Source: Prorocentrum cordatum (lineage: Eukaryota). From it: 55,653 nucleotides of DNA. Made by a program: the position numbers and the translations under genes. Shown here piece by piece: positions 20,701 through 55,653 of the stretch (position 1 is the first letter of the stretch; each line of letters opens with the position of its first letter). The DNA is taken from positions 62,001 through 117,653 of the forward strand of contig CAUYUJ010000144.1 in the NCBI GenBank assembly GCA_963575745.1. The letters are read 5' to 3'. The notes beneath the pieces are model-generated. The model saw only the letters and a program-made list of their open reading frames with translations, was not told the DNA's origin and searched no databases.

Positions 20701-23282
20701 AGCCCTGGCCGAGGACGCGCTCGATGTCCACGGGCGCCAGGCGGTCCGCGCCCATGCCCGTCTTCGCCTTCATGCGGCGCGCTGCAGCGCGCACGTCGGC
20801 TCCCGCGATAGGAGAGCGCGGCGCATCTCGCGCAGCCTCGGACGCCATCGCAGCCGCTTCCTGCAGCCGGCTGGTAACCTTAGGTTGGCGCATCCAGATC
20901 GCCTGCCAATGGGCTCCCTTGGCGCCCACGATGCCCCGAGGATTCGACAGCGCGCTGAGCGCCGTGGTAACCTCCTGCTTGGGCAAGGGCCCCTCCTCCA
21001 AGGGGCGGTAGACTGCGCCCCTGGAGGCCTGATCCGTGAGCCAGCCCTTGAACTCCTGCAAGGACTCACTCACCGCGCGACGATGCGCCCGCCGTTCAAC
21101 CCGCTCGCTGTGCTGGAAGATGCCCTCCAGGACACGGGACGTGCACCCCTCGACGTTGAGCAGAAGGCTCACCCACTCGTCTAACGTGGGCTCCACACCA
21201 AGGCGAAGGACGCGCCCCGCGTGGTCAGGTCGGTCCTCTGCCAGACGCCTGCAAGCACCGTGCAGCCGAACCAACTGCCGCTGGCCGTTGCCCCGACCCA
21301 AGTGACGAACGATCTGCTGGAGAACAGACGAAACTCTCTGCAACCACGAAGTGATGCGATCACGAAGAGGGGTTTCACGATATCGCCCTGAATGCTTGAC
21401 TGTCTCGATTGCGAAACGGCGCCCTTCAGCTCGGCTGGGACCTCCAGGCTGCGAAGACTGGTGGTGCTCGTGAACGGCCTGCTCTAAGGTGCGAATCCAC
21501 TGGCCGCGCGAAGAACTTGCGGAGCCCGCGCGCCGCAGGTTGAGCCGACCAGCTACTGACGAGGCAAGGCACACAGGCGAGGGCCCCACAACCATGCCTT
21601 GAGCTTGTACACGGCGCTGCTCCCACATATCACTGGGGACGCACAGCGAAGGTTCAACCTCGTCAGACGGGACTTCCGAACTTAAAAGGGGGGCTTCGTG
21701 CGAGGTGCATCCTTTGGCTGGGTAGGGGTTCTGCACGCTGGCACTATTAGGAGACTCGAAACTGACTGTATCGACTGAATCAGACTCGACTGAAGCAGAG
21801 ATAGGCTGATCAGAGAGAGGCTGGCAAGCAACATGGCAACCATGCGATGGGCCAACGCGGACGATCGATGGCGCATCACTGTGACAGGCACCCCCTTCAC
21901 AAGTGAAGCTGGCCTCGCCGTCGTTCTGCCCGCGAACTGATGTCCAACCTCGGCCGCCAGGGCGAAACTTGCCAGACATGCAAGCGAAATTCACGCCCTC
22001 ACCGCCGTTTTGCCCGCGAGCGGAGGGTGAGCCTCGTCCGCTGGTGGGAGACAGGCTGGCAGTATTGCAATCACGAGGCGCGGCGACGCGGATGACCGAT
22101 GACGCTTCACTTTTGCTGGCGCTCTCTGCGCTCGCGAAGTTCGCTGGATCAGCCTGCGGATCCCCCTCCTCATCGGGCCCGGCTTCAGCCTCGAGATCCA
22201 CAAACTGAGCAGACTGCAACTCATGTGACGCCTGATCTGTACTGCGAGGCTCGGCCTGTTGACTAGCTGAAGGAACCCCTGCGTGATCTCCAAACAATTG
22301 CACAATTTTCTCATTGCGGGCTACTCGTGAAACCTCCTGCTGCAGACGGCGGCTGTGCTTGGCAACAGAAGACTTAGAGCCTGCAGCGGGCAGTGTGCGC
22401 GGGCGAGCAACCTGCGGCGAGCGACTAGCGTGGACGAGTCGCCTGGTCTGGAGCTGCTGCCCACTGCGGCGTAGATTGAGTGATGGACCGATGCGCGGCC
22501 TCCAAGGAACGTCCAACTGCGGCTGGAGCGAGAGAATGTACGGCAAGGCGGCCTCGCTGACGATGGCGTAGTCCATCATGCTCCCCAGCTTACTGGCATC
22601 GCACGTGTACGAGACCCCCATCAGGGGTGATGATGCGGCCGGCGACCTGGTCCAGGAAGCCCGACCGCTGGATGACGTGAGGTTCCACGTTCCAGTCGCC
22701 CAAGCAAATCCACAGTAGACGAAGCCCACGTAGAAACCCTCCGAGACGATGGAACCTGGCTAGGTTGCGGCCCGAGAGGCCGACGGATGTGAACCCGTAG
22801 CGCACGCAGAGGACCACAGAGTAGCCGTGGAAGTGGAGGATCGAAGCGATGAAACCATCCAGCGCCTGAGAGCCTAGCGCCTTCAAGGCCGAAGACGACG
22901 CGGCCTCACGCAAGGATGCTGCCTGCAAATGGCCACGCGCGAGCACCCACTCGCCCCCCTCGTTGGCCTTGTCGTCAGTAGCACAAGATTGATGTCGACC
23001 GCTGGGTCGAGCTCCATTCGGTATGAGCTTAAGCCCTGCAGCACGAGCACGAGCATCCCACTTACGAAGCTGTGACTCAGGAGCGTGAGTCTCAACGATG
23101 CCCATGTACTCATGCGTCTTGCTGACGAGCTCAAGGTGGCCCCAGGCACGATCGCCCAGGGCCGTAACGTTGCTGAAAAAGACGCGGCTGATCCCCTGCG
23201 CGTCCTCGGACTCGGGCAGAACTGGCGCCTGGCAGCACGGCGCCTCCGCCCCAGCGGGGCGCTCGGCCCCAGGCGCTGGCCG
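17723..23282 (-). pseudogene. LINE-A ORF2: APE endonuclease, reverse transcriptase, RNase H and C-terminal Cys/His domain; multiple frameshifts
   Basis: APE: FFSNVT, GIVETH, LGDWNVEP, MDYAIVS. RT: GMGAD, LPKKADGDRVIGL, LDTEGFYD, SIIQG, IWVDD (WVDD at 20110-20121), FLGID. RNase H: FFGDASG (Asp 18860-18862), LPGHQQSVPRGEL, HSHQ...GNQAADVLA. C-terminus: PSHTM...WFCACCG...LGLGKGC. Confidence 0.9.
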
Positions 23283-48535: not shown

Positions 48536-49639
48536 ATGCCTTGCCACGGCATGCAATGCAATGCTATGTGGTGCTCCGCTGTGCGATGCCATGCCTCCAG
48601 CTGCCATGCTAGGATATTACGCAGTGCGACGCCATGCTATGCCATGCTACGCTTTGATCTTCAACGCCATGCTATAACATGTTCTGTTCACTACCGCTGT
48701 GCGATGCCATTATTTGCGCTGCATCGTTTTGTGCTGCAATTCTTCACTACGCAACGCCACGCCATGGTATGACATACTACGCTCTGCTGTGCTCTTGTAC
48801 GCCCTGCTACGTTGTGCTCTACAATGTATCGCGCACCCTCTCGCGATCATTGCCCTGCTCGAGATCCGACTGTGCGAAGAGTAGAGAGGAGATCTACGCC
48901 ATGGTAAGGGATGAGAGAAGGGGTAGGACGTCAGATGTGACGCGAGCGCACCTGGCTTGCCCCCTCCCCCTCCTCATCCGATTCCTCCTCCATTCTCCCT
49001 CTCTTTGGGTATGACTGCTTCCGCCACCCCTAATTCCACTGCGTGCTCCCCCAAATCCCCTGATCTGGGAAACTCGTCTGAGCATCGTTTCTGGGTGGGC
49101 TGGTGGGATCTCGCGAAGCGTCTAAAATACACACCCTACATACACCACCATGCAGTGGACGTCCCCTGGGAGGCGCGTGGCAAAGACTCCCGTTCTGATG
49201 GTTCATATTAATACACACTGTCAATCTGCTCTTCCACGCAATGGACGTCCCCCAGCGGAGCGTGGCAAAGACTCCCTCCAAAAACTCTCCTTTGGGGGCC
49301 TTAGAACGCTATGAAATAAACTTGAAGAGCCCCACCGCAAGACACCAATCGAGGCACTGCGAGAATCGCGACAGGCCCCGCCTGCAAGGAGTAGGAGAGG
49401 GGAGAGGGAGAAGCAAGAGGAAGGGGGAGGAGGGAGAAGGGAGAGGAAGGTGGATGAGGAGGAGGAGAAGGGGGAGGAGGGGGAGGGGGAGGAGGAGGAG
49501 GAGGAGGAGGAGGAGGAGGAGGAGGAGGAGGAGGAGGAGGAGGAGGAGGGAGTAAGAGGAGGAGGAGCAGGAGGAGGAGGAGGAGTGCACAGCCCCAGGG
49601 GACGACCGACGACGGCGGGACGACGGCTCCCTCCAAGGC

Positions 49640-52600
49640 TCAGCCTGCATCAGCAAGGGCAGCAGAGAAAAGAGGCGGGGCCCGCCTGCGCAGCTGGCGG
49701 ATGCGAGCCACGCCGAAGTTGAGAAGCCGAGCCCGCTCGGCGAGCGGGCTCGTCCGAGGCCAGTGTCTTAATTCATGGTATGCTGTGCAACAGATGTCAT
49801 GATACAAGGCGACAGAGAGGAGCTGCACATCACTGAGAGGTAAAAGACTGAAGACCGACGCACGCGCACCCGCTGTGTGAGTACGGAAGTCGGGGGAATA
49901 TTAGGAAGCATTGACAGAATATGGGCCGTGCACGCACAAACTAGAGTGTGGAGCATACTATCTGCACTGGCTTGGTGGCAGAATCGACACGGTTCGGTGG
50001 CACCTCGAAATCGGCGGGCGGTGCACAGGCACTACATAAAGTGCGAACGACACTGCTGGACACACAAGTGGGAGCAATACGAGAGACACGCTTGAGAGCG
50101 ACAAACAAGAGGTCAATCTGGTCGGGAGTGGGAACCACGCCGAATTTGCACAGACGATCACGAAGGACAGAGCGGAGGGGGGGAGAAGAAAGGGCTCTCA
50201 GGGCGGACTCAGATCGACTCTGGAATCTGGAAGCTCCGAAGACAGGCATGGTCGGGATCTGGGACAGAGTGTTGAAGTTGGAGATGAGATGGAAGATGGA
50301 GGACTCCTGATGCACAGTATTTCGCTGCCAACACAAAATAGAGTCATCATCGTCGTTCTCGATGACTGATTTGGCGTGGTAGAACGCCGCGGACATGACT
50401 GCAGTGCGATACATGGCTGCTCGGGCAGCTGGCGCGAGAGCGCGGGCCTGCATCGGGAAGCCCCACTCCTTGAGATTCTGGAGGATCCCCTGGGACAGGC
50501 TATTGTTCGGGGCGTTCGTCAGACTCTGCTGGGCTTTTCTGACGGCCGAGAACGCGGCTTTCGGGGGCGGGTAAAACTGCACCACATGGGAGGGGACCGA
50601 GAAGGCGGGAAGGTTGAAGCACACGATGGACTTGCAAAGGCCGAGGCCGAGACTTTTGACATCCTGCGCCCTCGAAATGCACTTGCTGGGTGGGGCGAGC
50701 CATGAGAGATTCCACCCATCGTTCCCAAGGAATATCCCTAAGTACTTCCCAAGATGCTCGAAATTGAGGTTGTCTGGGCGAACTCCTATCTGGCGCATGA
50801 GCTGCTGGCATTCGGCGACGCTGAGGCTGGCGAGGGTCACGAGAATCGTCTTGGGCAGATGAATATGCAGACCAGCAGCAGCGCCAGCGAGATGCCAGCA
50901 CGGAACCAGAGCTTTAAAGGTACTGAAGATGTCAGCGGCAGCGACGCCGACGTCGTCTGCAAATGCAGTCAACCAAGACACGCCACTAGGGATCCTCGTA
51001 AGCATGTGGCGTAAAATCGGATCGAAGGCGATGCAAAAGATAGTCCCTGACAGGGGGGGCCTTGTTTGATCCCACGAGAAGCCAGGAAGGAGTGCCCATG
51101 GAGCCCGCAGAAATTGATTTCGACGGTGACGTCCGTGTACAGGGCCTGAATACACCTCAGGATGTTTGACGGGAGCCCCATGCAGGTTAGGGCCCAGAAG
51201 ATCATATCGTGCAAGAGGCTGGGGAAAGCGGACCGCACGTCATAGTATAGCACACCAGCATGCGCGTGCCCAGACTTAGCATGCCACATAACTGCCCGAC
51301 TCTCGAGGTCGATGATGTTTTCGTTCATGTATCTCCCAGGAATAAACCCACGCTGGTTGACAAGAACAGTTTGGGAGGCAATCTGGGAAAGAGGTCTGTT
51401 GATGGCAAGGGAGATGAGCTTGTTGTCAGAGTTGGAGAGGGTAATAGGTCTAGTTGTTTCAGGCTTACGTATGATCTGGGAGGAGGTGTCGTCTGGGTCG
51501 CTGCCCTTGGCAAGGAAAACGGCCATTGCCCGATTAAACTTCGGCGGAAGGTAGCCCTGCTCGAGCAGGACGGAGTAGGGAGCGCACAAGGAGTCGGCAA
51601 CGGCTGCACCCCCTTTGCACAGCAGGCATAGGGTATGCCGTCGGGCCCAGGGCGCGAATCCCCGGTACGGGAAATCAACTCCCCAAATTCCAGACGCTCA
51701 AGCTTCCAGAAGATGTTGGGGGGGGGCAGGTCTGGACAAACTCACGCAGCTGTTGTCGGTCCTCGACAGATCCAGGAATACCTTGATGAACCTTGCCCCA
51801 GTGGTCGGCAAGATGCATCGCTACCTGCTCAGGCTCGGTAATGGCCTTGCCAGTCGGGTCGGACACGCCAGTAAGAGAAATCCTGCGGTGCTTCCGCCCC
51901 CATGCTGACTGATATCTGTAGAGTTTTATCTTCGCTTCTTGCTTGCGCTGGTCGGATATGGGCTGCTGCTCAATATCAATCATCTGCTTCTGGATGTGCT
52001 CATTCTTGAGATCAGTCAGGTGAGAGTGAAACGCGCGCATATCAATCAAAAGGCCAGACAGCGGGCAGAGAAACTTGGCGAGCAGCGGGTGCGCGCGCAG
52101 GGCCTTGCGAACAAGCCACAGAAGACCTCTCAGAGTGCCACGCAGGGCTGCGAGAGTCCAGGCAATCTTTTCCTCGACGGATTTGTTGGCCTGCTCGATG
52201 CTATGCTGGAGGGCGTTCTTACTCGCCTGAACAAGGATATCCTTCATCTGAGCGTGGTGCATGGCGGGGTCAATGTCGAGCGGGCCAACAGCGTCGAGCA
52301 GTTCCTGGACACAGATCGGGAAGTGCGAGTGCTTGGGGACCCATGCAGGAACTCTGAAGCCCATCTTGCCACCAGGGGATAATGCGAGGCACGCCGGAGC
52401 GTGATCCGAGAGCTGTCCTGCTTTCGAGATCGGAACGAGGGTGAGAGACTTGGGGTGGAGCTCGAGGAGGATAGCGCTGAATATGTTTGAGTATATTCTG
52501 TCGATGCGGCTCATGCTCACTTTACACAAGTCCCCGAAGTGCAGGGAGAAGAAAGCAGCAGCATCATTGCTGGAATAATTGGCGACACCACTGACGTGAA

Positions 52601-53347
52601 ACGACCCTTCGCCTTGACTGGGGAAATGGAAGTCCCCAAGCACGAAACTTGCAACAGCTTGGGCGGGTAGGAGAGTACGACGGAGAATCATGAGCTGACG
52701 CTTCTGTTCACTGAGAGGGAGAGCAGGATCGAGATGAATGTTAGAGGTCTGAAGAGTGCCTCTGGGACCAGCGAGAGTGAGAGAATGGATGCGACCCTGG
52801 ACTAATTCGGCGTATCGGCAGTACTTGAAATCGTCGCGGAGCGACGGATGGAACAAAAAAAAAAAAGTACGCATCCAGCAGCCCTGACTTCGAAGAAAGA
52901 CCCAATACCCCATGAGTCGTACACTTCGGAGCAGACTCTCTGTAGGTCGAGAAAAGAGCCCCTGGCCTCCTGGATGCGCACGACATGGTATTTCTGGATA
53001 TATGTTACTAAGCGTGACATTTTTCTTCTGACGGTATCCAGACGTGTGGTGAGCCCCCCGAAGAGCGACCGAGCGCTCCAGGAAACAAAACTGATATGTG
53101 CCTTGACTACGTATGGTGAGTGTGTCCAGAATCTAGGGATAGGGCGGAAAGACTCGGGCGCAGCCGAAGACGGGAACCTCATGGGCCCAGACGGCGCGGA
53201 AGACCAGGACGAGGTGGAGGAAGAGCCCGCAGACGCGGAAGAGGAAGAGCTCGACACGGAGGTGGAAATGCATGGCTGGTATGGAACCCTCATACCAGGC
53301 GCCCCTGACGAAAATGTAGAACCTGATCGGAACGGCGTGGGAGACCC
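49640..53347 (-). pseudogene. LINE-B ORF2: APE endonuclease, reverse transcriptase and Cys/His knuckle; frameshifted
   Basis: APE: VSWSARSL, IQEARG, VLGDFHF, SRIDRIY, LSDHAP. RT: PGPDGIPY, RPITLSNSDNKL, QRGFIPGR, YDVRSAFPSL, GIKQG/PLSG, AFADD (FADD at 50952-50963), KYLGIFLG. C-terminus: CTARRF...CRFCHQASADSMLHTLVC. Confidence 0.92.
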
Positions 53348-54271
53348 CTAGCTGGGACGGGCTGTCGCTATGATGGAGCCCGCCTGCTCAGGCGAGATGT
53401 CGAACTTGGCGGTGCCGTCGGGGGAGTGAACGATCTCGTACTGGCCGTAGTCCCCATCCTTGACTGTGAACAACTCATGATCAACCTCGCTGACGGCGAT
53501 GAAGAGGATACCCCTGAAGCCGTTGACACCGAGTTCGAAGCGCTGCTCATTCCATGTGCCTGCTTGTCGCAGATGGGTATTGACTGCCTGCCAGATTTTG
53601 CCCAGGACCTGGTTCTTCTGCCTGACCGTGCTGGGAGCATCCTTCCTGCAGCGGAGGGGGATGCGGGAGCCAGACACGCTGTCTTGCCACAGGATGCCGT
53701 GGGCCCTGCCGTGGTCAACGAACGAGGAGGCATCGAGCGAGCTGCTGAACGTGATAGAGTAGCTCTTGGCGAGGTTGTGGGCTTTGATGCTCACACCAGC
53801 CTGGCGGAGGTGAGAAGGGAGAAGACCGAATAGAGTGCGACCATGCGCCTCCATGATGGTCGCTAGCATGGGTCTCGTGAAGCCGCCAGTCCATACCTTG
53901 CAGGGACCATGCTCATCTCCAATACGCGAATTAACCTGACTCGGTGGTGCCGACAACCTTCGACGCGAAGCAGGCGGACCTGACGAGGAATCCCCAGCTG
54001 AGCTCTGAGTCGATGATGTCTCAATAGCAGCAATGCGGCTCTCGAGATCGGTGCGAAGGGCAGCGAAAGCACCAGCTTCGGACGAAGCACGAATGTTCGC
54101 CTCAAGCACGCCGGTGCGCTTGTTGATGCCTTCCATGGCGGTCTCCTGGGCAGTGAGCGAGACGCGAAGCTCGTGAATGCCAGGGAGCGCTGATTCGATG
54201 CTGGTCGAACGCCCTGTGATCCCCCCGAGCTGCTCGAGGATCTGCGCGATACCCTCTCCAACTTCAGGCAT
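53348..54271 (-). CDS. LINE-B ORF1 (307 aa; predicted coiled coil plus RRM-like/CTD-like region)
   Basis: Open 924-nt frame from the first ATG after the SL (MPEVGEG...ARPS*). Heptad-like N-terminus (LRTDLESRIAAIE), then KVWTGGF and LRCRKDAPSTVRQKNQVL, reminiscent of the L1 ORF1p layout. Confidence 0.75.
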   Translation of the reverse strand: MPEVGEGIAQILEQLGGITGRSTSIESALPGIHELRVSLTAQETAMEGINKRTGVLEANIRASSEAGAFAALRTDLESRIAAIETSSTQSSAGDSSSGPPASRRRLSAPPSQVNSRIGDEHGPCKVWTGGFTRPMLATIMEAHGRTLFGLLPSHLRQAGVSIKAHNLAKSYSITFSSSLDASSFVDHGRAHGILWQDSVSGSRIPLRCRKDAPSTVRQKNQVLGKIWQAVNTHLRQAGTWNEQRFELGVNGFRGILFIAVSEVDHELFTVKDGDYGQYEIVHSPDGTAKFDISPEQAGSIIATARPS

Positions 54272-54400
54272 TGCGGCAAGCTGCGAGGGAGGCCGACGGC
54301 TCGGGCACGAGCGCGCCAGCGGGGAAAGTGTCCGCCTGGATTTGACTCCAGGAAAGCCTCGGAAGAGAGGCAGCCTCACTCGAATGGGGCCTGTCCCCAC

Positions 54401-54422
54401 CTTGAGCCAAAATGGCAACGGA
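54401..54422 (-). other. Dinoflagellate spliced leader (dinoSL) copy at the 5' end of LINE-B
   Basis: Minus strand TCCGTTGCCATTTTGGCTCAAG vs dinoSL DCCGTAGCCATTTTGGCTCAAG, 21/22 identical. Confidence 0.92.
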
Positions 54423-55653
54423 GGAGCAGGAGGAGGAGGAGGAGGAGGAGGAGGAGGAGGAGGAGGAGGAGGAGGAGGAGGAGGAGGGGGAGAGCCAGCA
54501 AGCGAAGAGCAAGTGGAGGCGAGAGGCCCTGCCCATGGGAGGACCTCCGCGTTGCTCTGCTTGCGGGCCCTCTTCTGGGCGGGCGTCTCCTTCTTCTCCT
54601 TGCCTGCCAGCTGCCGCGCCATCCTCGAAAGCAACCGGCTCGAAGCTGCAGCGGTGGGAGGGCTCTCGGGCCAAAATCTCGCCCGCGCCTCTCCACGCGG
54701 GAGGCTGGCGAGCGCGACGCTGGCTGGAAGATGCGGGGGGCGAGGGAGACGGGTCGAAATACCACCTCCATTCTTCCACGCCGTCCTGCGTCCATTCCTC
54801 CACTTCACCTCCTGCGCCTCTTTCCCCCTCACTGCCAAACGCGCGGCCCAGAGAGCGACCTCCAGTTTTAAGAGCGCGAATGCCTGTTTCCAATCCTCTT
54901 GCCAAGACGGCGAGGCAGCGGACAGCGGATCCTGTCCACCAACCACGCCTTCTCCACCTCCTCCTCCTCCTCCTCCTCCTCCTCATCCTCATCCTCCTGC
55001 TTCACCCTTGCAGTGCCCATGTAACCTCCTCGTGGAGAGAGGTTGAAGTATAAAATTGAAAGATTCACTGAGTGTTGAACTAATGGGATAAAAGGGTGGA
55101 GGACATATGGTGTGCCTCCCTTGGTGGGGGTAGGCTTATGGTGCCCACCGTCAGTTGTGGAGGAGCCTATGGTGCCCCTCCGAGCCCACCCCGTCCCATC
55201 CACAGGGACTTCGCACCTCCCCCCAAGGTCCCCCACCATGCCCCTGTGGCACGAAGTGGAGTGTCCCCAGGTCCATTGCTCAACCCCTGAGCTTCAGCCC
55301 TCAACTCTGAGAATTCTGTAAAAAAATCTGGACCCCTAATTCCAAGACGGCCCAAGGGGCCCCCAAGACCGCCCCCAAGAGGCCCCAGGGAGACGCAAAG
55401 GAGGCCCCAAGAGGCCCCCACGACGCCCCGATACTACCCAAACTGGCCCCCAAGAGGCTTCACAACGGCGCCCAAGAGACCCCCGAAAGGCCTCCAACGA
55501 CATCCCTACGAACAACTTGGAGGCTTGTGACCTTACAACACAGGCGCAGTGGCGGGATGGGACGAAGGCTATTGGATAATTGGAAAGCGACCTGATGAGG
55601 TGGCTGGACCACTCGTCTGTGCTAATCCTTATCCTCCTCCTCCTCCTCCTCCT

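What the first reader, a model, noticed from the sequence alone, without database searches (positions are those of the whole stretch)
49564..54444. Full-length LINE that starts with a spliced leader and is enclosed by a target-site duplication
Seen: the first 22 nt of the element are dinoSL (21/22), directly next to a 22-bp direct repeat that also flanks the 3' end and carries a diagnostic GCA interruption of the GGA array. Known: dinoSL is trans-spliced onto nuclear mRNAs, relict SLs mark retrocopies, and SLACS/CRE/NeSL elements insert into SL RNA genes. Inference: the SL lies inside the TSD in a microsatellite context, so it was on the RNA template. The LINE would then be trans-spliced and reverse transcribed through to the cap. 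The terminal AG of the integrated SL could serve as the next trans-splice acceptor, restoring the 5' end each cycle without an internal promoter. Caveat: the SL is followed by GT, as in an SL RNA gene, but what follows is the ORF1 5'UTR.
Basis: partly seen in the sequence, partly recalled or inferred. Interest (0 to 1): 0.9.

Follow-up and report, generated by a model that had tools for sequence, protein, structure and literature searches.

The report
LINE copy starting with spliced leader
A young jumping gene of the LINE type in a dinoflagellate-type genome begins with the 22-base leader that these algae splice onto their messenger RNAs, so it was most likely copied from a fully processed messenger RNA of the element itself.

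Summary
On the minus strand, a 4,837-bp non-LTR retrotransposon (54422 to 49586) starts with TCCGTTGCCATTTTGGCTCAAG. This matches dinoSL at 21 of 22 positions and is unique in the window. It lies inside an exact 22-25 bp target-site duplication within a (GGA)n array. The element has a 129-nt 5'UTR and an intact ORF1 whose predicted fold best matches human LINE-1 ORF1p. ORF2 carries a reverse transcriptase and is broken by five frameshifts. At four of these sites, other copies carry a frame-restoring indel. One public run holds 225 related contigs, 35 of them at least 99% alike, with lower depth over ORF1. So the family is multicopy, partly young and mostly 5'-truncated.

The best reading is that a trans-spliced LINE mRNA was reverse transcribed to its 5' end. 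Independent support is thin: one distant ORF1 relative from another source begins with about four tandem 15-nt relict leaders.

No other 5' junction, RNA run or whole genome could be reached. I found no paper describing a LINE with a dinoSL 5' end. Interest is moderate.

The parts
49561..49585 (.). Target-site duplication, copy at the element's 3' end (GGAGGAGCAGGAGGAGGAGGAGGAG on the + strand)
   Evidence: Identical 25 of 25 to 54420-54444, with no extension on either side.
49586..49767 (-). 3'UTR, ending ...GGGGCTGTGCA with no poly(A) tail. It contains an 11-bp perfect hairpin at 49752-49728.
   Evidence: Sequence. Inverted self-match. Fold; the whole-UTR z-score of -1.37 is not significant.
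49768..53293 (-). ORF2, about 1,170 codons in six frame segments. The five frameshifts lie at T12 52866-52855, C9 51726-51718, G5 near 51613, C7 51059-53 and near 50025.
   Evidence: Three-frame translation and homopolymer list. Other copies carry +1-equivalent indels at 51717/51719, 51614, 51057/51058 and 50025 (table 4).
52395..53095 (-). Putative apurinic-type endonuclease region (motifs ISFVSWSARSL, IQEARGS, GDFHF, SRIDRIY, SDHAP)
   Evidence: Motif coordinates. That these are APE motifs is my recollection only. There was no Pfam hit and no PDB hit.
50772..51472 (-). Reverse transcriptase core (motifs QRGFIPGR, LYYDVRSAF, GIKQG, AFADDV)
   Evidence: Pfam RVT_1 3.6e-09 and 0.0092 on the two pieces. 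PDB hits to R2 and L1 ORF2p.
49930..49989 (-). C-terminal Cys/His motif (CRFCHQ...HTLVCAC), readable only after the frameshift near 50025
   Evidence: No Pfam hit.
53348..54271 (-). ORF1, 307 aa, intact: long helix, disordered linker, RRM-like domain and C-terminal domain
   Evidence: AlphaFold2 with 70 sequences gave pLDDT 87.8. The Foldseek top 10 are all human LINE-1 ORF1p chains, E 1.3e-04 to 2e-03. There are 147 relatives at E<=1e-3.
54272..54400 (-). 5'UTR, 129 nt, beginning GTGGGGACAGGCCCC
   Evidence: No Rfam match.
54401..54422 (-). dinoSL copy TCCGTTGCCATTTTGGCTCAAG (21 of 22; A6->T removes the internal AG)
54420..54444 (.). Target-site duplication, copy at the element's 5' end. Its first 3 nt overlap the leader.
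54423..54492 (-). (CCT)n tract directly upstream of the leader on the sense strand. The 72 nt before the leader are 99% pyrimidine.

Best explanation
This is a recently inserted, architecturally complete copy of an L1-like non-LTR retrotransposon (ORF1p of the LINE-1 type, ORF2 with reverse transcriptase) in a dinoflagellate-type genome. Its RNA template carried the 22-nt dinoflagellate spliced leader at the 5' end, because the element's own mRNA had been trans-spliced like other nuclear mRNAs. Target-primed reverse transcription began at a nick in the purine strand of a (GGA)n array and ran to the very 5' end of the RNA. The cDNA end was joined with 3 nt of microhomology (TCC), leaving a 22-25 bp target-site duplication. 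Shown: the leader, its position inside the duplication, the LINE proteins, and the multicopy and 5'-truncated character of the family. Inferred: that the leader came from trans-splicing of a LINE transcript, where the acceptor lay in the source copy, and the order of the integration steps.
For: The leader is 21 of 22 and unique, with 0 of 100 shuffles matching. An exact 25-nt direct repeat encloses leader plus element, with a single GCA interruption in each copy. Both flanks are microsatellite, not SL-gene sequence. RT is supported, and the L1-type ORF1p fold. ORF1 is intact, and there are no stops within any of the six frame segments read as ORF2. Family evidence: run X1 has 225 contigs at least 85% alike (35 at 99+%, 61 at 95-99%, 85 at 90-95%, 44 below 90%). 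Depth is 10-54 over ORF2, 1-8.5 over ORF1 and 4.1 in the last bin, which holds the 5'UTR. Independent case: P0038, a 449-aa ORF1 relative from a JGI contig of 5,198 nt, starts LAQAILAQAILAQAILAQ. That is the 15-nt relict CCATTTTGGCTCAAG read in frame about 3.6 times, upstream of its ORF1. Song et al. 2017 (PMC5585692, passages) report 'RNA-dependent DNA replication' genes enriched among DinoSL-tagged retrogenes.
Against: Only one copy could be examined, and no other 5' junction of the family was seen (skipped 54414-54452). No RNA evidence exists (one search listed no RNA holder). The leader differs from the canonical sequence at position 6, which a freshly added leader should not; this needs a later mutation, an RT error or a variant SL gene. 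The leader is followed by GT, as in an SL RNA gene. P0038 is only 28% identical, I could not see its DNA, and it may be a stand-alone gene. None of the 147 relatives aligns to the translated 5'UTR or leader, query residues 1-50.
Confidence: 0.7

Rival explanations
1. Inherited fossil leader. An ancestor captured the leader once and it is now simply the first 22 nt of the family's 5'UTR. It is transcribed from a start site at or near it, perhaps using the TTTT motif of the leader as a TATA-like element, without fresh trans-splicing in each cycle.
For: The A6->T mismatch fits a copied, mutated relict better than a freshly added leader. Song 2017 (figure legend) and Irwin 2022 (PMC9651163, passages) discuss the leader's TTTT as promoter-like.
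Against: It needs transcription to begin exactly at the first base of the relict, and no promoter was identified. One mismatch in 22 nt in a copy with other private changes is also compatible with mutation after insertion.
Confidence: 0.12
2. SL-gene read-through. The source copy sits in or just behind an SL RNA gene and was transcribed from the SL gene promoter, as SLACS/CZAR are. The leader plus the start of the '5'UTR' (GT...) would then be SL exon plus intron carried along as a 5' transduction.
For: GT follows the leader, and the next bases can form a small GGGG/CCCC hairpin.
Against: This insertion is not in an SL gene. After the Cys/His motif only about 47 residues remain, which is too short for a restriction-like endonuclease. 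In the F. kawagutii SL gene table, 'GGCTCAAGGTGG' occurs 0 times; the downstream sequences shown begin GCTGGAAACC or GTTCAGGCTGG, though that is another species. No Rfam hit.
Confidence: 0.08
3. Template-switch chimera. At the end of the LINE RNA, the reverse transcriptase jumped onto an SL RNA or another leader-bearing RNA, as in U6-L1 chimeras (recalled).
For: Non-LTR reverse transcriptases do switch templates (abstracts listed).
Against: A jump onto an SL RNA or an mRNA would copy that RNA from its 3' end. Intron or mRNA body sequence should then lie between the leader and the LINE. Here the leader ends exactly at its splice point.
Confidence: 0.05
4. Artefact. A misassembly in a long-read assembly placed a leader-bearing sequence next to the microsatellite, and the repeat match is a by-product of the array.
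For: ORF2 has five frameshifts, four of them in homopolymer runs, which suggests consensus errors in the assembly.
Against: The 25-nt match includes the only GCA interruption of the right array, at the fitting distance. The leader match is far beyond chance.
Confidence: 0.03

Closest known systems
[quoted passage not shown]
   Same: A DNA-encoded dinoSL marks the 5' end of a sequence copied from a trans-spliced mRNA.
   Different: Here the copied mRNA is that of the autonomous retrotransposon itself. The leader is complete (22 nt) rather than the usual 15-17 nt relict. It sits inside a clear target-site duplication, and there is no poly(A) remnant.
SLACS, CZAR, CRE1/2 (trypanosomatids) and NeSL-1 (nematodes): LINEs specific for spliced-leader genes (PMC4640811, passages)
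   Same: A LINE is physically joined to spliced-leader sequence.
   Different: Those elements insert into the SL exon of SL RNA genes and carry a restriction-like endonuclease. This copy is in a (GGA)n array, has leader sequence only at its 5' end inside the duplication, and has no room for such a domain after the RT.
Mammalian LINE-1
   Same: Shared features are an ORF1p with coiled coil, RRM and C-terminal domain, an RT similar to ORF2p, target-site duplication, frequent 5' truncation, and full-length copies that reach the RNA 5' end.
   Different: There is no poly(A) tail, and the endonuclease was not confirmed by any library. L1 makes its 5' end with an internal promoter (recalled), whereas here the 5' end is a spliced leader.
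L1Tc/ingi with the Pr77 internal promoter (PMC1874656 and PMC8190864, abstracts in the listing)
   Same: A LINE in an organism whose mRNAs are all trans-spliced.
   Different: Pr77 gives unspliced transcripts. The element here carries the leader.
Dinoflagellate +ssRNA virus transcripts with a 5' dinoSL (Levin 2017, as cited in PMC10235124 and PMC9651163, passages)
   Same: A genetic parasite whose RNA bears the host's leader.
   Different: That is an RNA virus or endogenous viral element, not a retrotransposon with its own RT.

Membership tests
Non-LTR retrotransposon (LINE), L1-like | Reverse transcriptase of the non-LTR type | tested here: met
   Pfam RVT_1 3.6e-09. PDB best hits are R2 proteins at 4e-10 and human L1 ORF2p at 6e-08.
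Non-LTR retrotransposon (LINE), L1-like | ORF1p with coiled coil, RRM and C-terminal domain | tested here: met
   Model pLDDT 87.8 with helix 5-87 and two alpha/beta domains. Foldseek ranks 1-10 are human LINE-1 ORF1p. No Pfam hit by sequence.
Non-LTR retrotransposon (LINE), L1-like | Apurinic-type endonuclease N-terminal to the RT | tested here: inconclusive
   Motifs read by eye. No Pfam hit and no PDB hit. A single-sequence fold of the C-terminal half was unusable, pLDDT 38.
Non-LTR retrotransposon (LINE), L1-like | Target-site duplication | tested here: met
   25 of 25 identical.
Non-LTR retrotransposon (LINE), L1-like | 3' poly(A) tail | tested here: not met
   The element ends ...GCTGTGCA directly before the duplication.
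Non-LTR retrotransposon (LINE), L1-like | Multicopy family with 5'-truncated members | tested here: met
   225 contigs in X1. Depth is 10-54 over ORF2 against 1-8.5 over ORF1.
dinoSL-tagged retrocopy | DNA-encoded dinoSL at the 5' end of the copied unit | tested here: met
   21 of 22, directly next to the duplication.
dinoSL-tagged retrocopy | Transcripts carry a new leader in front of the relict | not testable with these tools
   No RNA run was listed.
SL-gene-specific LINEs (CRE clade, NeSL) | Insertion within an SL RNA gene, with SL-gene sequence on both sides | tested here: not met
   Both flanks are (GGA)n. Leader sequence is found only at the 5' end.
SL-gene-specific LINEs (CRE clade, NeSL) | Restriction-like endonuclease C-terminal to the RT | tested here: not met
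   About 47 residues remain after the Cys/His motif. This is by reading only, with no profile test.
Microsatellite-targeting LINEs | All or most copies lie in the same repeat type and orientation | not testable with these tools
   Only one junction pair was seen. The window has 34 GGA or TCC arrays of 6 or more units, so one hit is weak evidence.

The most novel reading that the evidence does not exclude
The family has no promoter of its own. It lands in (GGA)n arrays, so that a long pyrimidine tract lies just upstream on its sense strand. It is transcribed by read-through. It gets a capped, exact 5' end by SL trans-splicing at the terminal AG of its own DNA-encoded leader, and so rebuilds the same 5' end in every cycle. 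Such a currently active, leader-bearing LINE could also be the long-sought reverse transcriptase source for the mass of dinoflagellate retrogenes.
Probability: 0.15. Interest if true: 0.85.

Novelty: new variant of a known kind. Interest (0 to 1): 0.55.

Why it matters
Dinoflagellate genomes are full of retrocopied genes tagged by relict leaders, yet the papers I read say the machinery is unknown. [quoted passage not shown] Other papers call Symbiodiniaceae LINEs ancient, inactive remnants (PMC8045281; PMC10235124).

A LINE copy with an intact ORF1, a perfect duplication, near-identical relatives and a complete leader at its 5' end would show three things. The LINE's own mRNA is trans-spliced. 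Its enzyme can copy a leader-bearing RNA to the end. And the family was active recently. That makes the question of who makes the retrogenes directly testable.

If the leader is present on all full-length copies, it would also be a way for a LINE to define its 5' end without an internal promoter.

Tried and rejected
**Genome and runs**
- No whole genome is held.
- The look-up of sequencing runs listed 4 DNA runs and no RNA holder.
- Read laying on 49556-54452 skipped 49556-49590 and 54414-54452 as repeats. It therefore gave no 5' or 3' junctions of other copies and no empty site.

**DNA relatives: none found**
- ORF1 against metagenome, genome and viral contigs.
- P0038 against metagenome and viral contigs.
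- The RT piece against viral and genome contigs.

**Protein searches**
- ORF1 at near lengths gave 0 hits.
- The RT piece at longer lengths gave 0 hits.

**Earlier findings of this scan**
- Nothing relevant came up.

**Element features**
- Rfam gave no match in 49400-54600.
- The 5'UTR fold z-score is -1.99 and the 3'UTR fold z-score is -1.37; neither is used as evidence.
- The endonuclease had no Pfam or PDB hit. A single-sequence fold gave pLDDT 38 and was discarded.
- No second copy or other LINE remnant is present in the window.

**Neighbourhood**
- I gave 130 of the 194 ORFs of 130 aa or more to Pfam.
- None reached a curated cut-off, so the orientation of host genes is unknown.

**Weak lead**
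- P0096 has RSLFGSS near its N-terminus, one mismatch from the leader in frame 2. About 0.05-0.2 such hits are expected by chance on my own rough estimate, so I do not count it.

**Literature**
- Six searches were answered, and passages of ten papers were read.
- None describes a LINE that starts with dinoSL.
- Two SL RNA papers were not held.
- bioRxiv supplements and most journal supplements were not seen.
Full report
**What is there**

The feature lies on the minus strand. Read 5' to 3' on that strand it has these parts:
- About 70 nt of (CCT)n.
- The 22 nt TCCGTTGCCATTTTGGCTCAAG (54422..54401), followed by GT.
- A 129-nt 5'UTR.
- ORF1 (ATG 54271, stop 53350-53348, 307 aa).
- A 54-nt spacer.
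- ORF2 (from 53293 to about 49768).
- A 182-nt 3'UTR ending ...GGGGCTGTGCA at 49586, with no poly(A).
- (CTC)n-type repeat again.

The 22-mer matches the dinoflagellate spliced leader DCCGTAGCCATTTTGGCTCAAG at 21 of 22 positions; the consensus is as printed in PMC7245778. It is the only match with up to 3 mismatches in the window, and none arose in 100 shuffles.

**Target-site duplication**

49561-49585 and 54420-54444 are identical over 25 nt and differ immediately outside. The right copy's first three bases are also the leader's first three (TCC on the sense strand). The duplication is therefore 22-25 bp, with up to 3 nt of microhomology at the 5' joint.

Each flanking array contains GGAGCAGG exactly once, at the position expected for a duplication. 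Removing the element and one repeat copy restores an in-phase (GGA)n array, by direct reading.

**What kind of element it is**

- *Reverse transcriptase.* The RT is of the non-LTR type. Pfam RVT_1 scores 3.6e-09, and the nearest solved structures are R2 proteins and human LINE-1 ORF2p.
- *ORF1.* It has no Pfam hit. It does have 147 relatives at E<=1e-3 among 1.84 billion representative proteins, the best at 41% identity. With 70 of these sequences as alignment, AlphaFold2 gives a confident model (pLDDT 87.8). The model has an 80-residue helix, a disordered linker and two alpha/beta domains. Foldseek ranks human LINE-1 ORF1p chains 1-10, followed by RRM domains.
- *Endonuclease.* Upstream of the RT I read motifs that I recall as typical of apurinic-type LINE endonucleases: IQEA, GDFHF, SRIDRIY and SDHAP. 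No library confirmed this, and a single-sequence fold failed. I mark that domain as unconfirmed.
- *C-terminus.* After a C-terminal Cys/His motif, only about 47 residues remain. A restriction-like endonuclease of the SLACS/NeSL type does not fit there.

**State of this copy and of the family**

ORF1 is intact. ORF2 is split over six frame segments by five frameshifts, four of them in homopolymer runs (T12, C9, G5, C7).

Contigs of a public run (X1) show a multicopy family, with 225 contigs at least 85% alike:
- 35 at 99% or more
- 61 at 95-99%
- 85 at 90-95%
- 44 below 90%

Run X2, a metagenome, has 14 such contigs, including a 235-nt ORF1 piece with 2 differences.

At four of the five frameshift sites, some contigs carry an indel that amounts to +1:
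- 51717 (+4) and 51719 (-2)
- 51614 (+1)
- 51057 and 51058 (+1)
- 50025 (+1)

So the family has an open ORF2, and this copy's breaks are private or are assembly errors. The summed depth is 10-54 over ORF2, 1-8.5 over ORF1 and 4.1 in the last bin with the 5'UTR. This is the pattern of a 5'-truncating LINE family. No second copy or other LINE remnant lies in the window.

**How the leader got there**

The leader lies inside the duplication, and the flanks are microsatellite on both sides. It was therefore part of the inserted cDNA.

The simplest source is the element's own mRNA, trans-spliced like other dinoflagellate nuclear mRNAs and reverse transcribed to its 5' end. I give this 0.7.

An independent, though distant, case supports that such messages exist. 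Among the 147 ORF1 relatives, 13 do not begin with M. One of them, P0038 (449 aa, a JGI record on a contig of 5,198 nt), begins LAQAILAQAILAQAILAQ. This is what the 15-nt relict CCATTTTGGCTCAAG gives when read in frame, about 3.6 times over. It is followed by about 140 residues and then the ORF1-like part. I could not obtain its DNA. Whether an ORF2 follows is therefore only suggested by the contig length.

Song et al. 2017 found 'RNA-dependent DNA replication' enriched among DinoSL-tagged genes (passages). This points the same way but was not interpreted at the level of LINE 5' ends.

**Rivals**

1. *A fossil leader inherited as DNA and transcribed from a start at its first base (0.12).* This fits the A6->T mismatch, but it needs an unexplained exact start site.
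2. *Read-through from an SL RNA gene, with the GT and the following bases being SL intron (0.08).* The insertion is not in an SL gene. The published F. kawagutii SL gene sequences continue differently after the exon: 'GGCTCAAGGTGG' occurs 0 times in that table. That is another species, so the argument is weak.
3. *Template switching (0.05).* This should leave extra sequence between the leader and the element.
4. *Assembly artefact (0.03).*

Nothing I could run tests it.

Two observations bear on it. P0038 shows arrays of 15-nt relicts, the known outcome of splicing at the leader's internal AG, so in that family the 5' end is not restored exactly. In the present copy, however, the single mismatch turns that internal AG into TG. 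The sense strand upstream is 72 nt of 99% pyrimidine. The first AG after that tract is the leader's terminal AG at 54402-54401.

A trans-splice there would recreate leader plus GTGGGG exactly. This is suggestive anatomy from one copy, not evidence of use. The window holds 34 GGA or TCC arrays of six or more units, so landing in one is not by itself proof of target choice.

**Comparison with the literature**

Six answered searches and passages from ten papers turned up no description of a LINE whose 5' end is a dinoSL. Symbiodiniaceae LINEs are described as old, diverged remnants (PMC8045281; PMC10235124). Supplements of preprints and most journals were not seen.

The finding is best filed as a new variant of a known kind: a relict-leader retrocopy in which the copied message is that of the autonomous LINE itself. 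It is not a member of the SL-gene-specific CRE/NeSL elements.

**Verdict**

Interest is 0.55. The bold reading, a promoterless and self-renewing leader-dependent LINE, has a probability of about 0.15.

Noticed in passing
window 20117-22759 (-): An 881-aa open frame, the longest in the window outside the element, has no Pfam hit.
   Followed up: partly
whole window: There are 34 perfect GGA or TCC arrays of six or more units in 55.6 kb. None of the 130 ORFs that I scanned, out of 194 of at least 130 aa, reached a Pfam cut-off. The neighbourhood looks gene-poor and microsatellite-rich.
   Followed up: partly
window 49728-49752: An 11-bp perfect GC-rich hairpin sits in the element's 3'UTR, about 150 nt from the 3' end. 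It might be a recognition stem for the RT of a tail-less LINE. The whole-UTR fold is not significant.
   Followed up: partly
window 54401-54422 and upstream to 54982 (-): In ORF1's reading frame the canonical leader would give a TAG stop (CCG TAG). The A6->T change removes it, so the frame stays open from the microsatellite through the leader and 5'UTR into ORF1 (open frame 53351-54982).
   Followed up: no
protein P0038 (JGI record, contig 5,198 nt): This ORF1-family protein has a predicted N-terminus that is a translated array of about 3.6 relict spliced leaders. Its relatives P0043 and P0148 lie on contigs of 5,737 and 5,141 nt, and P0042 on one of 2,167 nt. The first three lengths are close to that of a full LINE message.
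   Followed up: partly
window 52855-52912: Other copies in X1 and X2 diverge from this copy locally around the T12 run, with loose ends at 52874 and 52912 in both runs. The T12 run itself appears to be private to this copy.
   Followed up: no
proteins P0071, P0069: The ORF1-like domain is fused in long gene models to PPR repeats or a GTPase domain. These are probably chimeric gene predictions in the source genomes.
   Followed up: no
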